DNA of 34,196 nt from a virus. Lineage: Duplodnaviria > Heunggongvirae > Uroviricota > Caudoviricetes. The first letter of the stretch is position 1; the number at the start of each line of letters is the position of its first letter. Below are positions 12,001 to 17,537 of the stretch, one piece after another. The stretch lies in the IMG/VR virus record IMGVR_UViG_2563366972_000006. One strand, written 5' to 3'. Made by a program: the position numbers.

Positions 12001-15000
12001 AGTGGATATTGAGACTCAGACAATATAAAATAGATGAATATGAGTTAATTGTTGCCCACTTTGTAATAGGCGTTTCTTTGAGAAAGATCGCAAAAAGAAA
12101 TAAATGTGCGGATGGGACTATTAGAAAAAAAATACAAGCAGTGATGGGAATATTGGAGGGAGTATTAATGTTCTAACTGTTAGAGCTAAATAAAAATCTT
12201 CGCAAGAAATATTCCTGCTGCAATAGAACTTGGTAGCCAAGCCAAATACATAAATAACTTTATTGTATTATCACATTTGGTTTGGCTCTTTGATAGTTCA
12301 TATAGAGCCTCATTAATGTCCTTCTTAATGTCCTTCTTAAGGTCTTCTGGATAATTTTCATTGTTTTTTAGAAAAGGCATAAATGCTATATCTTTAGCAT
12401 GGCAAATATGTTTTAATTGTTTATCCTGATTGAGTAATACCATATGTAAAATAAGTGAGCTTAACAATACACCTAATAAAACGAGTAACATTTCAGATCT
12501 TGATGTTAGTTTTATAATCCCGAAGGATGCCAGTAAAGACACAGGGATTGATAATACTTTTGTCGTCAAATCAGTAATAAGTTTTGAGATTTTTTCAGCA
12601 AACTCTGCTTCAGACTTCGCAATTTCTTTTCGTGCCTTATGGAATGAAAAACCACTCATATACGTGGATAAATTATTTTCAAATAGCTTTACAAATTTAT
12701 CCCAATGGCAAATTAGGTTTTCAAAATCATATTTGTTATCGAGAATAAACTCCACTATGGTATTCCTGAAAATACCTGTTTTTTCTGCTTGATGGGGGAT
12801 TTGGGCGTTTTTTACATCTAAAAGACTCTTGATGATAGCATCATCAATGTCATTTATATTGAGCATCTTAGGTGTAATGCACGTTTCTAAAATAATAGAT
12901 GTTGATTTTGCGTCAGAATCTTTCACGAAAACTAAACGATAATTTGAAGATTCCGATTTTGTATCGTGAAAGTGCGCAATCTCAGCCTGGGAAGAAATAA
13001 TTGCACAAATTTTCTCGATTTTTATAATTTCGTCCGGTTTACTTGAATCAGACGGATGAAAATCCTCATCGATTATGTAATACTCTTTAGGAATTACACC
13101 TTTCTTGAGTGAGTTTATACAAAGGAACTCTTGAATTGAGTTATAGAAACGTTCTGCTCCATTTTTAGGGGATATGTAAGTGTATGAGAATTTATCTCCA
13201 ATTTTAATTGGGTGTGATTTTAAATCGTCTTCGTCAATGAACTCATTATTAATATCAACATCTTCAAAATAACCGTAGGCTTTATGTGAATTTACTAACA
13301 AGTTTACCAAACGTTGATTGTTATTATTTATTTCAACAGTTGCAGAAAAAGAACGTCCGTCGAATTGGGGCTTCGATGATGCTCTATAAAAATCCACAAC
13401 CGTTGATAAATTAGCCATTTTCTTTTCCACTATCCCTTAGTTTTAAATTTTCTTTTACCACAGCGCTTAGTTTAGCCTTAAATTCAGCTGGTAAGTTTGT
13501 AAATGATAATCTTCCAGTTGTTTCATCGTACCACACATCATCATCAGCTGTCACTCCAAGGAGAGACTTGTCAAAATTAAATCCAATCTCATCAGTCTTA
13601 AAGGTGATGTTTTTAATGTCTTTCAACGCCCGTTTACTAATAACAAATTCAGTTGGAATTCTCACATTTTCACTATTTAAAAAAAGAATTAATTCGTGAG
13701 TGTAAGATTCTTTGGTAGACTCATCTAAATTTGTCATGTGACGTGCTGCAATTACTTCAATATCACTCAATCGGGCTGACAAATTTTTAGCTGCTTGTGT
13801 GTCTAAATATGTAATAACGTCATGTTTAAATCTATTGGCACATGCTTTAAGTTCTGGTTTTTGGTTAAAAAATTGTTTTGCGACAGTTGGTAGTTTTTTT
13901 GTGGCTTTTGCTGCTGCAAGTGATTTGTCGCATCCTATTGCTGCAATAAAATATGCTGATGTGGATTGACCCACTCCTTTACTTACGAAACTTAGATAAC
14001 TTAAGTCAATTTTTTCAGACTCATCAGCAGTTTTATATTGTTGGTAGAGATTGAAATTTATTCTTGCTGCTTGGTGTATTTTGGATAGATCCAAATGGAT
14101 CATTTCTTCAGGTTCGAGTTTGTTGCTGATAGTAACACCATTTTTCTTTTTAATCATTGCAATTAAAAAGAATTTATTGTTATTTACAATATAGTCACAA
14201 AACACAATAAAACCACCAGATGACCAAGGTTCTTCTTTGGCTTTTTTTACAAGTTGCTTCATCACTTCAATAGAAAAAGGCACAAACTTTTCATTAATGT
14301 TATCCTCTGACTGAGAATACTCTTCAAATATTGATGGCACAGGCCCTTGTTCTGTTTTCTCCTCTTTAAAAACGCCATAATGTGCAGAATTGCCTTTGGT
14401 TCCATATAAAGATGAAATGTCTTGAATAAGTTTTATAACAATTGGATTGGTTTTATCGAGAGGAGTGGATCTAAGCTGATACGGCTTAGAAAAATCAAAA
14501 TCCTTTTTTGCTTCTTTAATTAGTTCATGAACGATAACTTGCTTAATTTCCATATTGAAAATATCACCTATGTTATTGTTAGATCGTTTGTGATTTTTTA
14601 CCATCACAACAACGACACAAAATCATTAATGCGTACGCAAAAATTTTGAATAATGAGTTAATCAATGTCAATAGTTAAACACACTACCGCTGTAGAGTTG
14701 TTGTCATTAAATTGCGTCATAAGTAGAATTGCTGCGGTGCTTGAGGCTATCTGTCTCAGGCATGAACACCAAAAGGCAGATAGAGAAAAGCCCCAGTTAA
14801 CATTACGCGTCCTGCAAGACGTTTAACATTAATCTGAGGCCATATCTATGCGACACATAGAGATTAGCCTCTTACGGACCGAAAGGTCAAGGAGAAGCAG
14901 GCTATGAAGCAGCAAAAGGCGATGTTAATCGCCCTGATCGTCATCTGTTTAACCGTCATAGTGACGGCACTGGTAACGAGGAAAGACCTCTGTGAGGTAC

Positions 15001-17537
15001 GAATCCGAACCGGCCAGACGGAGGTCGCTGTCTTCACAGCTTACGAACCTGAGGAGTAAGAGACCAGGCGGGGTAAACCCCCGCCACCTCTGATGTGTCA
15101 GGCATCCTCAACGCACCCGCACTTAACCCGCTTCGGCGGGTTTTGTTTTTCATGAATAAGGGATTAATAATTTTAACTGAAATTATATTGCCTTGTTGTC
15201 CGAATGGTTAGTTAATTATTCGATATTGTTGTATTTGTTGTATTTGTTGTATTTGTTGTATTTGTTGTATTTGTTGTATTTGTTGTATTTGTTTTTATTT
15301 TTGGGCTTTATCGCTTGCGATTGCTTCGAAATAAAGATTAATTAGAATTCATCCGTTTTGAGTAGCGCGCAGGGAGAAGATGGATGGACCCTGAAAAGGG
15401 GAGAGCTATTTATCTGGAAGGATTCTGAAGATGAAAATCGAAGAATTGCATGAATTGTTTAGTGAAAATGGCCTCTATGCTGTGCGCGTTGAGAATGGAA
15501 CTATTGTCAGTCACTGCCGCATTAAATGTTTACAATCCCAGCAAAGGAAGAGCGGTGCTGTGTTAATTTATTTTGTGGATGGACTTATGGTGGACGGTTT
15601 TATTTTACGTGAAGATGAATTTGTCACATCATTACAGGCTTTGAAAGAGATAGGGCTTAAGGCTGGATTTTTTGCTTTTGAGACTGAGTGAATTCATCTA
15701 CAATTCAGCACAGGGTTGACCCCCTGCTGAGTAACACCGTGCCACCGGAGAAAACCGATGGCACATATACAACTGGTCAAACAAACTTCTTCTGGTTTAC
15801 TTCTCCCGGCGACACCGGAGAGTTGCGATTTTCTGCATCAAATCAAAATAGGCGAGTGGATACACGCTGACTTTAAGCGTGTTCGTAACTACGCATTCCA
15901 CAAGCGTTTTTTCAAACTTCTGCAACTGGGATTCGATTACTGGACTCCGATCGGAGGGGCGATCACGCCTCACGAACGAAAACTGGTGTCCGGTTTCGTT
16001 GATTACCTGTGTGAATCAGTAGGCCGGGAACATACGCCTGCTCTGAGCGAAGCCGCAGAGCAATATCTGAATACCGTTGCGACACGCAGAACCCAGGATA
16101 CGGCACTGCTCAAGTCATTTGACGCCTTTCGTGAATGGGTAACCATTCAGGCCGGATTTTACACTGAGCATTTTTATCCGGACGGTAGCCGTGGACGCCG
16201 GGCGAAATCCATCGCTTTTGCGAATATGGACGAAACCGAGTTTCAGCAGGTTTATAAATCTGTACTGAATGTGCTGTGGAACTGTATTCTGTTCCGTAAA
16301 TTTTCCTCTCCGGAACAAGTCGAAAACGTGGCCGCGCAGCTGCTGGAGTTTGCGTAATGGTGAATTTACGTAAAGCGGCGCGAGGCCAGATGTGTAAGGT
16401 CAGAATTCCTGGCTACTGCAATCACAATCCCGAAACGTCTGTACTGGCGCATTACCGACTGGCGGGAACGTGCGGAACAGCGATAAAGCCACACGATATG
16501 CAGGCAGCGATTGCCTGTAGCTCGTGCCACGATTTAATCGACGGGCGGGTAAAAACTAGCGATTACACCAAAGAAGAATTGCGCCTGATGCATGCAGAAG
16601 GTGTTTTTCGCACACAAGAAATCTGGAGAAAGGAAGGTTATTTATGATTTACCCAACGAATACAGGAAAAAGCGGAGAACACCTTCGTCTCACCACGCTG
16701 GAAAGTGTCTGGATTCAGGGAAAACTGCGCATGTGGGGGCGCTGGTCGTATATTGGCGGCGGTAAGACGGGGAATATGTTTAACCAGTTGCTGGCATCCC
16801 AAAAAATGACAAAAACAGCCATCAATGAAGCCCTGCGCAGATTGAAAAAAGCGGGAATTGATAAACCAGAGTTGGAAGCATTTTTGCGTGAGATGATCGA
16901 AGGAAAGCAAAAAAGCTGGTTAACTCACTGCACTGATGCAGAGGCACTAAAAATTGATAGTGTTATAGGTGAAGTTCTGGCGGATCATCCAGGACTACTA
17001 AATGTCCTGAGTCAGCGTTATGTGGGGCGAGGGATGAGTAAGAGAAGGATGGCCGAGTTATTAAACGAACAGTACCCAAAGTGGTGTTTTAGCACATGCG
17101 AAAAGCGAATTGCTAATTGGTTGGCTGTTGCTGAGTATGCTCTATACATTCCCATGCGAGAATCATTTGCTCAAAAAACGGCTTGATTTTTTACGCACAA
17201 ACTGCTTCAATTCCGGTACGCTTCGCAAAGCTGTATCGCGAGGCGAATTAAGCGCATGAACTTTAATAGAACCCGCCATTGTGCGGGTTTTGTTGTTTTT
17301 GTGATGTGGCATAAGAAACGACATTTAATAATCGCCTTCAAAATAAATTTGTTTATATGTTGTCGAGTATATATTAAATATACGTAACATGTTTGGATAA
17401 AATAAAAACACATAAATAAATTTACATAAATTGACGCAAAGTGTTGTTGCGATTGAATTATTAAACCGTATCATCGAAAACGGTTCTGAGGGGGAACTCT
17501 TCTTTGATCGGTGATATCGCTCCCCCGAAGAACCATT

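What the first reader, a model, noticed from the sequence alone, without database searches (positions are those of the whole stretch)
14700..15150. hok/sok-type type I toxin locus inside the prophage, divergent from the candidate operon
A 51-aa ORF (14904-15059) encodes a Hok/Gef-like peptide (single TM helix followed by RKDLCEVR). An upstream leader ORF (MRHIEISLLRTERSRRSRL) terminates in ATGA overlapping the hok start, as expected for mok-type translational coupling. A GC hairpin (15066-15083) and a UUCG-loop terminator (15124-15150) follow. The antisense Sok-like RNA would lie on the minus strand around 14820-14900. The locus is unannotated in the ORF track because it is short.
Basis: partly seen in the sequence, partly recalled or inferred. 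Interest (0 to 1): 0.55.

Follow-up and report, generated by a model that had tools for sequence, protein, structure and literature searches.

The report
Known hok/sok toxin-antitoxin cassette in prophage

Summary
ORF 14904-15059 encodes a 51-aa Hok/Gef peptide (Pfam HOK_GEF, E 1.2e-23). It is 100% identical to RefSeq HokD. The leader 14735-14906 matches Rfam RF01794 at 102 bits against a cut-off of 59.

Every regulatory element defined for plasmid R1 hok/sok sits at the homologous place:
- the hok promoter;
- 5' tac paired with 3' fbi;
- ucb masking the mok Shine-Dalgarno sequence;
- dcb;
- a 19-codon mok ORF (14848-14907) ending in AUGA on the hok start;
- the GC hairpin that would cap the processed mRNA;
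- the terminator.

Its promoter is at 14861-14890 on the minus strand, and the RNA spans roughly 14785-14854. Its -10 box aligns with the sokW -10 box that was mutated experimentally in phage Sp5.

Near-identical cassettes are found in E. coli chromosomes, phages and plasmids, usually annotated hokD. Small local features: the short mok allele (13 of 84 sampled loci), a hypervariable Sok-recognition patch, and one missing G near the hok 5' end.

Verdict: already known, low interest.

The parts
14701..14729 (+). hok mRNA promoter: -35 TTGTCA (14701-14706), 17-nt spacer, -10 TAGAAT (14724-14729).
   Evidence: Consensus scan gives 10 of 12 matches. The -10 TAGAAT is kept in 78 of 82 homologous loci scored. 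Homology between loci begins at about 14720, so the -35 is specific to this insertion context.
14736..15150 (+). Full-length hok (mok-hok) mRNA, about 415 nt. The 5' end is inferred from -10 spacing and homology to the R1 +1 GGCGCUUGAGG.
   Evidence: MFE is -166.5 kcal/mol with z -6.6. Rfam RF01794 covers 14735-14906. The ends are inferred, not mapped.
14736..14746 (+). tac (translational activator element), GGUGCUUGAGG.
   Evidence: It pairs with 15106-15117 in the full-length MFE. It pairs with 14753-14763 in the nascent 40-mer (metastable hairpin) and with ucb 14788-14794 in the 75-mer. R1 positions G4/C5/U6 are essential (PMC9841398).
14788..14794 (+). ucb (anti-SD of mok), AAGCCCC.
   Evidence: It pairs with the mok SD 14836-14840 in the full-length MFE. 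It is the alternative partner of tac. The AGCCCC motif is identical to the R1-type locus.
14836..14839 (+). mok Shine-Dalgarno sequence, GAGG.
   Evidence: It lies 8 nt upstream of the mok AUG. It is masked by ucb in the closed fold and by dcb in the open fold. R1 has the same GAGG mok SD motif, where substitutions abolish toxicity.
14848..14907 (+). mok leader ORF, 19 codons plus a stop. The stop overlaps the hok start as AUGA.
   Evidence: Translation. The same allele occurs in 13 of 84 leader-bearing loci; the others start 57 or 58 nt upstream of hok.
14836..14871 (+). Sok-target hairpin: outer stem is mok SD GAGGC with dcb GCCUC (14867-14871), and the inner stem holds the mok AUG. It contains the hypervariable patch 14840-14862.
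   Evidence: Open-conformation fold. All 25 alleles fold to the same architecture. Entropy profile.
14861..14890 (-). Sok promoter: -35 TTGACC (14890..14885), 18-nt spacer, -10 TAATCT (14866..14861).
   Evidence: Read from the minus strand. It aligns with the Sp5 sokW -10 TAACCT, whose mutation abolished antitoxin activity (primers YO-421/422; alignment). The generic promoter scan did not call it.
14785..14854 (-). Predicted Sok antisense RNA, about 70 nt: a single-stranded 5' end complementary to the mok start region, then a long hairpin and a UUUUCUCU tail.
   Evidence: Fold is -28.4 kcal/mol with z -5.7. The ends are inferred by homology to R1 Sok and not mapped.
14890..14894 (+). hok Shine-Dalgarno sequence, AGGAG. 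It overlaps the Sok -35 on the other strand.
   Evidence: It lies 9 nt upstream of the hok AUG and is partly paired in both folds. It is the point where K-12 hokD homology begins.
14904..15059 (+). hok toxin ORF (HokD allele), 51 aa.
   Evidence: Pfam HOK_GEF E 1.2e-23. 100% identical to WP_000813254.1 HokD. NCBIfam Hok family E 5.7e-13, below the curated cut-off.
15067..15085 (+). GC-rich hairpin homologous to the terminal stem of the processed (truncated) hok mRNA.
   Evidence: Present in the folds. In R1 the homologous stem protects the truncated mRNA from 3' exonucleases. G-U/A-U/G-C variation is tolerated at one pair in homologues.
15106..15117 (+). fbi (fold-back inhibitory element), UCCUCAACGCAC(C).
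   Evidence: It pairs with tac in the MFE. CCTCAACGCACCCG is kept in 67 of 78 loci scored. The tac-3/fbi pair is U-A here and C-G in the R1-type locus.
15125..15150 (+). Intrinsic terminator: 7-bp stem with a UUCG loop (15125-15142) plus a U-run.
   Evidence: Terminator scan. Cassette homology ends right after it.

Best explanation
Window 14701-15150 is a complete hok/sok-family type I toxin-antitoxin cassette of the hokD/hokW subtype, carried as a ~430-bp accessory module in a Rac-like lambdoid prophage. The mechanism below is inferred by element-for-element homology with plasmid R1 hok/sok and Sp5 hokW-sokW. Only the sequence elements are shown here.

1. A constitutive promoter makes a stable ~415-nt mRNA.
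2. While the mRNA is nascent, the 5' tac is locked in a local hairpin.
3. In the full-length RNA, tac pairs with the 3' fbi, ucb masks the mok SD, and the RNA can neither be translated nor bound by Sok.
4. Slow 3' trimming back to the GC hairpin (15067-15085) removes fbi. tac then switches to ucb, and the mok SD moves into the SD/dcb hairpin.
5. This form is either bound by the short-lived antisense Sok RNA (minus strand, ~14785-14854) and cut by RNase III, or, when Sok has decayed, translated.
6. Ribosomes read the 19-codon mok ORF through the hok SD, terminate at AUGA and reinitiate on hok.
7. The 51-aa Hok inserts in the inner membrane and kills or lyses the cell.

The likely biological role in a prophage is one or both of two things, and it is the less certain part. 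One is helping lysis and phage release on induction, as shown for Sp5. The other is penalising loss of the element.
For: - Toxin: Pfam HOK_GEF E 1.2e-23. It is identical to RefSeq HokD.
- Leader: Rfam RF01794 at 102 bits against a gathering score of 59.
- Full-length MFE: tac 14736-14746 pairs with fbi 15106-15117, ucb pairs with the mok SD, and the mok AUG lies in a stem; z -6.6.
- Nascent fragments: the 40-mer forms the tac metastable hairpin and the 75-mer forms tac/ucb.
- Conformational switch: enforcing tac/ucb costs 10.9 kcal/mol in the full-length RNA but only 2.8 in the 3'-trimmed RNA, and then gives the mok SD/dcb hairpin described for R1 (R1 model quoted).
- tac/fbi covariation: pair 3 is U-A here and C-G in an R1-type plasmid locus.
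- Sok: the promoter is conserved, with TAATCT or TAACCT in 76 of 83 loci. It is homologous to the sokW -10 box whose mutation unmasked HokW toxicity. The Sok fold has z -5.7.
- mok: in R1, mok must be translated up to the hok start but not beyond it. This ORF does exactly that.
- Distribution: the same cassette is found in phages, plasmids and E. coli chromosomes, annotated hokD/hok/mok.
- Function of a close relative: hokW-sokW of Sp5 is an experimentally active TA that aids phage release.
Against: - There are no expression, end-mapping or toxicity data for this copy.
- The unconstrained MFE of the trimmed RNA keeps the closed form.
- The Sok -10 matches the consensus at only 3 of 6 positions and was missed by the generic scan.
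- RNAalifold on 74 close relatives did not return tac/fbi, and those sequences vary too little for real covariation statistics.
- The arm-swap test on the target hairpin was not decisive.
- Own knowledge (Pedersen & Gerdes 1999, as summarised): several chromosomal hok loci failed to give post-segregational killing.
- This copy uniquely lacks one G between the -10 box and the 5' end. The effect is unknown.
Confidence: 0.93

Rival explanations
1. The cassette is a structurally intact but functionally silent relic. It is transcribed little or never activated, like several chromosomal hok loci, and contributes nothing to the prophage.
For: - Chromosomal hokA/B/C loci did not mediate post-segregational killing (summarised in bioRxiv 2025.08.07.668861).
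- K-12 hokD has lost its whole leader.
- 3 of 87 sampled loci lack the leader.
- This copy has a unique 1-nt deletion at the 5' end and a context-specific -35.
Against: - Every known element is intact and in register.
- The hok ORF is identical to a peptide tested as toxic (HokD control).
- The same short-mok allele recurs in 13 independent contigs.
- The closely related Sp5 locus is active.
Confidence: 0.12
2. The short leader ORF is not a working mok. The frameshift that created the early stop uncouples hok from upstream translation, so Hok is not made, or is made independently of Sok control.
For: - Most relatives have a 68-70-codon mok, with offsets -57 or -58.
- Stop codons upstream of the hok start abolish toxicity in R1.
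Against: - The stop here is not upstream of the hok start. It overlaps it as AUGA, so ribosomes cross the hok SD.
- R1 data show that translation beyond the hok start is dispensable.
- The mok start codon, SD and Sok target are all retained.
- mok uses all three frames in relatives, which shows that the peptide itself is irrelevant.
Confidence: 0.05
3. The main role of the cassette is abortive-infection defence against other phages, or stabilisation of the prophage, and not lysis assistance.
For: - R1 hok/sok has been implicated in phage defence and plasmid maintenance (introduction of PMC8621323).
- The cassette sits next to a gene pair distantly related to the DS1 anti-phage system.
Against: - A survey found hok is not enriched near defence systems (section heading).
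- The only direct experiment on a prophage copy points to lysis and phage release.
- The DS1 hits are far below the curated cut-offs, and there is no PADLOC hit.
Confidence: 0.3

Closest known systems
hokD (relF) of E. coli, as annotated by RefSeq in many prophages (WP_000813254.1); K-12 Qin copy b1562
   Same: The toxin is 100% identical. The best complete cassette matches are 97.1% identical in DNA, in strains such as ETEC1738. The gene neighbourhood is the same: hok, then rem, then Q.
   Different: The K-12 copy keeps only the hok SD, the ORF and the 3' UTR. Its promoter, tac, mok and sok are replaced by relBE. The window has the full regulatory leader.
hokW-sokW of Sakai prophage 5 / Stx2 phages (Takada et al. 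2021, PMC8621323)
   Same: The architecture and position in a lambdoid prophage are the same. The leader, Sok hairpin, fbi and promoters align throughout. [quoted passage not shown]
   Different: - The HokW C-terminus differs (…VDYESEK compared with …TAYEPEE).
- The Sok-recognition patch differs.
- mokW starts 57 nt upstream, in frame with hok, where the window has 56 nt and a 19-codon ORF.
- The Sok promoter is TTGCCT-17-TAACCT, compared with TTGACC-18-TAATCT here.
- The Stx2 phage copy has a different 3' end in place of the UUCG terminator.
hok/sok (parB) of plasmid R1
   Same: All named elements are present in the same order: tac, metastable hairpin, ucb, mok SD, mok, dcb, hok SD, hok, 3' protective hairpin, fbi and terminator.
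   Different: - The toxins are about 44% identical (HokW vs R1 Hok figure).
- mok is 70 codons and overlaps hok in another frame.
- The Sok hairpin is shorter; the window has a 16-nt insertion relative to the Rfam consensus.
- R1 is plasmid-borne with a post-segregational killing role.
mokC/hokC (gef) of E. coli K-12
   Same: It is a chromosomal hok family locus with a leader ORF. From own knowledge, MokC is an in-frame N-terminal extension of HokC, like the majority (-57) class seen here.
   Different: It is a different paralogue at a different chromosomal site and is not prophage-borne. The DNA match covers only part of the query at 83% identity (H56).

Membership tests
[quoted passage not shown] | Hok/Gef small membrane toxin (~50 aa, N-terminal TM helix, conserved R-K-x-L-C-E core). 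| tested here: met
   Pfam PF01848 E 1.2e-23, full-length model match 1-42. Identical to RefSeq HokD.
[quoted passage not shown] | Conserved structured 5' leader of the toxin mRNA. | tested here: met
   Rfam RF01794 at 102.3 bits against gathering 59, full model 1-157, on the hok strand.
[quoted passage not shown] | Long-range 5' tac / 3' fbi pairing that closes the full-length mRNA. | tested here: met
   Predicted in the MFE, 11 pairs with one bulge. The same pairing is predicted in an R1-type locus, with a compensatory C-G to U-A change at pair 3. This is prediction only, with no structure probing.
[quoted passage not shown] | mok leader ORF whose translation reaches the hok initiation region, with its SD alternately masked by ucb and dcb. 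| tested here: met
   ORF 14848-14907 with AUGA overlap. ucb/SD pairing in the closed fold and SD/dcb pairing in the open fold. The requirement is defined in R1. Coupling itself was not tested.
[quoted passage not shown] | cis-encoded antisense Sok RNA with its own promoter, complementary to the mok initiation region. | tested here: inconclusive
   The promoter and terminator hairpin are present and conserved, and they are homologous to the validated sokW promoter. The transcript cannot be demonstrated with these tools, and the generic promoter scan missed the site.
[quoted passage not shown] | 3' processing to a truncated, translatable mRNA that ends at a protective GC hairpin. | not testable with these tools
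   The hairpin 15067-15085 is present at the homologous place. Removing the 3' tail lowers the cost of the open form from 10.9 to 2.8 kcal/mol. Processing needs RNA work.
[quoted passage not shown] | Toxicity of Hok and neutralisation by Sok. | not testable with these tools
   Shown for HokD peptide controls and for Sp5 hokW-sokW, not for this copy.
hokD subtype (NCBI naming) | Protein sequence equal or near-equal to HokD. | tested here: met
   51 of 51 identical to WP_000813254.1. No NCBIfam HMM specific to HokD scored: the best NCBIfam hits (Hok family 48.5 bits against 73; HokA 40.2 against 89) are below their cut-offs. The name therefore rests on identity, not on an HMM.

The most novel reading that the evidence does not exclude
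The most novel reading concerns natural variation at the mok/Sok region.

Across otherwise near-identical hokD cassettes the mok start codon is fixed, but the ORF runs in all three frames. In frame it gives a 70-aa Mok-Hok fusion. In the R1-like frame it gives a 68-aa ORF. In the third frame it gives the 19-codon AUGA form, which is the allele in this window.

The 23 nt around the mok start, where Sok's 5' end pairs, are hypervariable, with at least 12 alleles. This could mean two things. The window carries a natural 'minimal mok', which would show that pure termination-reinitiation is enough. The patch may also be under diversifying selection to keep co-resident hok/sok copies from cross-talking.

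I found no systematic description of this. The 2026 survey preprint explicitly skipped mok and Sok.
Probability: 0.12. Interest if true: 0.3.

Novelty: already known. Interest (0 to 1): 0.08.

Why it matters
It matters mainly for annotation. The window carries an intact RNA-regulated killer cassette that an ORF track misses, and a second type I system (ralR/ralA) lies 13 kb away. Anyone engineering, curing or inducing this prophage should expect Hok-mediated membrane damage.

It adds nothing conceptually to hok/sok biology. The one small addition is a natural example of a mok ORF that stops exactly at the hok start. This agrees with the R1 mutagenesis conclusion that mok only has to deliver ribosomes to the hok initiation site.

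Tried and rejected
- Generic sigma-70 scan for the Sok promoter: it found nothing on the minus strand in 14820-14950. The site was located by homology to R1 and Sp5 instead.
- RNAalifold on 74 unique relatives: the consensus missed tac/fbi. Three leaderless loci disturb the alignment, and the set varies too little. It was not useful as a covariation test.
- Single-structure pair counting on the Sok-target hairpin: abandoned, because the alleles use different registers.
- Arm-swap (chimera) test on that hairpin: not decisive. Native arms gave -12.65 kcal/mol, chimeras gave -11.46 +/- 2.24, and 29% of chimeras were as stable as native.
- Unconstrained MFE of the 3'-trimmed mRNA: it did not give the published open conformation. 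Constrained folding was needed.
- Low-stringency Rfam scan of 14600-15300: only chance-level extra hits (ceN48, CRISPR-DR, rsmX), all far below their gathering scores.
- PADLOC: no hits for Hok or the neighbouring genes.
- Chance ORF plus chance hairpins: considered and rejected on the E-values above.
- One script double-counted alignment rows as loci. The counts given in this report are corrected for that.
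Full report
**Observation.**
- ORF 14904-15059 (+) encodes MKQQKAMLIALIVICLTVIVTALVTRKDLCEVRIRTGQTEVAVFTAYEPEE.
- It matches Pfam HOK_GEF end to end, with E 1.2e-23 and 82.9 bits against a cut-off of 22.
- It is 51/51 identical to the RefSeq protein WP_000813254.1, 'type I toxin-antitoxin system toxin HokD'.
- The leader ORF MRHIEISLLRTERSRRSRL lies at 14848-14907, and its TGA overlaps the hok ATG as ATGA.
- The GC hairpin is at 15067-15085.
- The UUCG-loop terminator is at 15125-15142 and is followed by a T-run.

**Covariance model.** Rfam RF01794 ('sok antitoxin, CssrC') matches 14735-14906 over the full model, at 102.3 bits against a gathering score of 59 and E 2.4e-22.
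- The match is on the + strand and the model ends at the hok AUG. It therefore describes the hok mRNA leader, whose complement contains Sok. It is not the antisense RNA as such.
- A permissive scan of 14600-15300 added only chance-level hits.

**Anatomy of the sense RNA.** A promoter (TTGTCA, 17 nt, TAGAAT; 14701-14729) places the 5' end at about G14736. This gives GGUGCUUGAGG, the counterpart of the R1 5' end GGCGCUUGAGG.

The 415-nt RNA 14736-15150 folds at -166.5 kcal/mol, with z -6.6 against shuffles. In that fold:
- tac (14736-14746) pairs with 15106-15117 (fbi).
- AGCCCC (ucb, 14789-14794) pairs with the mok SD GAGG (14836-14839).
- The mok AUG sits in a stem.
- The hok SD is partly paired.

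The shorter forms behave as the published folding pathway expects.
- A nascent 40-mer locks tac in a local hairpin, and a 75-mer pairs tac with ucb.
- Forcing tac/ucb costs 10.9 kcal/mol in the full-length RNA. It costs only 2.8 kcal/mol once the RNA is trimmed to the GC hairpin.
- That open form then puts the mok SD in a stem with GCCUC (dcb, 14867-14871).
- This is the closed/open scheme described for R1 in PMC9841398, where the homologous 3' stem protects the truncated mRNA.

An R1-type plasmid locus gives the same tac/fbi pairing. Pair 3 is C-G there and U-A here, which is one compensatory change.

The unconstrained MFE of the trimmed RNA stays closed. The switch is therefore inferred, not predicted outright.

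**Antisense Sok.** The minus strand reads TTGACC (14890..14885), 18 nt, TAATCT (14866..14861).
- This aligns base for base with the Sp5/Stx2-phage sequence.
- There, Takada et al. mutated the -10 box TAACCT, lost antitoxin activity, and restored it with sokW in trans (primers YO-421/422).
- Among 83 leader-bearing homologues the -10 is TAACCT (60) or TAATCT (16). The -35 is TTGCCT with a 17-nt spacer (62) or TTGACC with an 18-nt spacer (21).
- A transcript starting near 14854 would have a free 5' end complementary to the mok start, then a long hairpin and a UUUUCUCU tail ending near 14785. It folds at -28.4 kcal/mol with z -5.7.

The transcript ends are inferred.

**Relatives.**
- A 551-bp query (14650-15200) finds at least partial matches in 4937 of 5426 complete E. 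coli genomes. The best cassette matches are 97.1% identical and annotated hokD.
- 74 phage records and 257 plasmid records cover at least 80% of query 14700-15160. The phage records include Rac-type and Stx phages, with features annotated 'mok', 'hok' and 'MokW'.
- K-12 hokD keeps only the part from the hok SD onwards. relE replaces the leader.
- Homology between loci starts at about 14720 and ends just after the terminator, so the unit is a ~430-bp module.
- A 2026 preprint reports Hok in about 80% of Enterobacteriaceae genomes and a four-fold enrichment in prophages.

**The mok allele.** I examined 87 loci: the window plus 86 fetched. Eighty of these came from IMG/VR as the 80 best-ranked matches, all with a Hok peptide identical to the window's, so the sample is not random.
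- 84 loci have the leader.
- mok starts 57 nt upstream of hok in 68 of them. This is in frame and gives a 70-aa Mok-Hok fusion.
- It starts 56 nt upstream in 13, including the window. This gives 19 codons ending in AUGA.
- It starts 58 nt upstream in 3. This gives 68 aa in the R1-like frame.
- 3 loci lack the leader (corrected for duplicated alignment rows).

In R1, mok must be translated up to the hok start. Stops beyond the hok start are harmless, and exactly 19 mok codons lie upstream of hok. The window's ORF is thus a natural minimal mok. It is compatible with coupling by termination-reinitiation.

**Hypervariable patch.** The 23 nt at 14840-14862 (mok start and Sok 5' end) form the only hypervariable stretch inside the transcript.
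- All 25 alleles still fold into the same two-tier hairpin.
- An arm-swap test did not show clear compensation.

**Context.** The window is a Rac-like lambdoid prophage. In order it contains:
- RalR/RalA and RecE;
- replication genes;
- a Q-like gene;
- two minus-strand genes;
- the hok/sok cassette;
- a rem-like ORF, DUF1367 and a second Q-like gene;
- tRNAs, a holin and a terminase.

The cassette is indeed divergent from the minus-strand pair.

**Verdict.** The locus is a member of a thoroughly described family, and its toxin is identical to a catalogued one.
- Novelty: already known.
- Interest is low. The only mildly new angle is the natural frame polymorphism of mok and the variable Sok-recognition patch.

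Noticed in passing
window 12186-13430 (-) and 13411-14607 (-): The two overlapping minus-strand genes divergent from hok give sub-threshold NCBIfam hits to the two proteins of the 'DS1' anti-phage system. DS1_2 scores E 2.9e-28, 99 bits against a cut-off of 315. DS1_1, the 'nucleoid-associated anti-phage protein', scores E 1.5e-28, 99.9 bits against a cut-off of 330. The second gene also matches Pfam NA37 (E 2.8e-51). There is no PADLOC hit. This may be a distant variant of a two-gene defence module inserted between a Q-like gene and hok. The same pair occurs in E. coli strains 602354 and Z0117EC0005.
   Followed up: partly
window 1557-1735 (+) and 1734-1967 (-): [quoted passage not shown] The RalA antitoxin sRNA matches Rfam RF02694 at 207 bits against a gathering score of 170. 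The RalR endodeoxyribonuclease toxin matches the NCBIfam equivalog NF007260 at 154 bits against a cut-off of 113. Both are typical of Rac prophage.
   Followed up: partly
window 15226-15293: There is a perfect 9-bp tandem repeat, TTGTTGTAT x 7.6, in the spacer between the hok terminator and the rem-like ORF. Its function is unknown, and I did not check whether it is conserved in relatives.
   Followed up: no
window 15042-15045: The hok Tyr47 codon UAC is followed by G, giving a UACG context. [quoted passage not shown] This copy keeps the motif.
   Followed up: no
window 14730-14736: The window is the only one of 82 loci scored that has 6 rather than 7 nt between the hok -10 TAGAAT and GGTGCTTGAGG; one G of GCGGGTGC is missing. 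This could shift the 5' end or shorten the tac/fbi helix by a pair. It could also be a sequencing error.
   Followed up: partly
window 14795-14835: The Sok terminator / ucb-SD hairpin carries a 16-nt insertion relative to the Rfam consensus, forming an extra GCGUC/GACGU arm. Relatives fall into a 'long' and a 'short' hairpin class (short examples: L002, L022, L085), which suggests modular recombination inside the cassette.
   Followed up: partly
window 11649-12176 (+) and 16644-17186 (+); 17538-17691 (+): There are two Q-antiterminator-like genes (Pfam Phage_antitermQ; DUF1133), one on each side of the hok region. tRNA-Thr(UGU) and tRNA-Gly(UCC) genes lie just downstream of the second one.
   Followed up: no
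L088 (plasmid pMTY1886_IncFII) 344-556: In this R1-type plasmid locus the Hok peptide is identical to R1 Hok, but mok starts 57 nt upstream (in frame), not the 58 nt of R1. RefSeq annotates only a truncated 33-aa 'Hok family toxin' at 458-559. This shows that mok frame variation and Hok mis-annotation also occur among plasmid copies.
   Followed up: no
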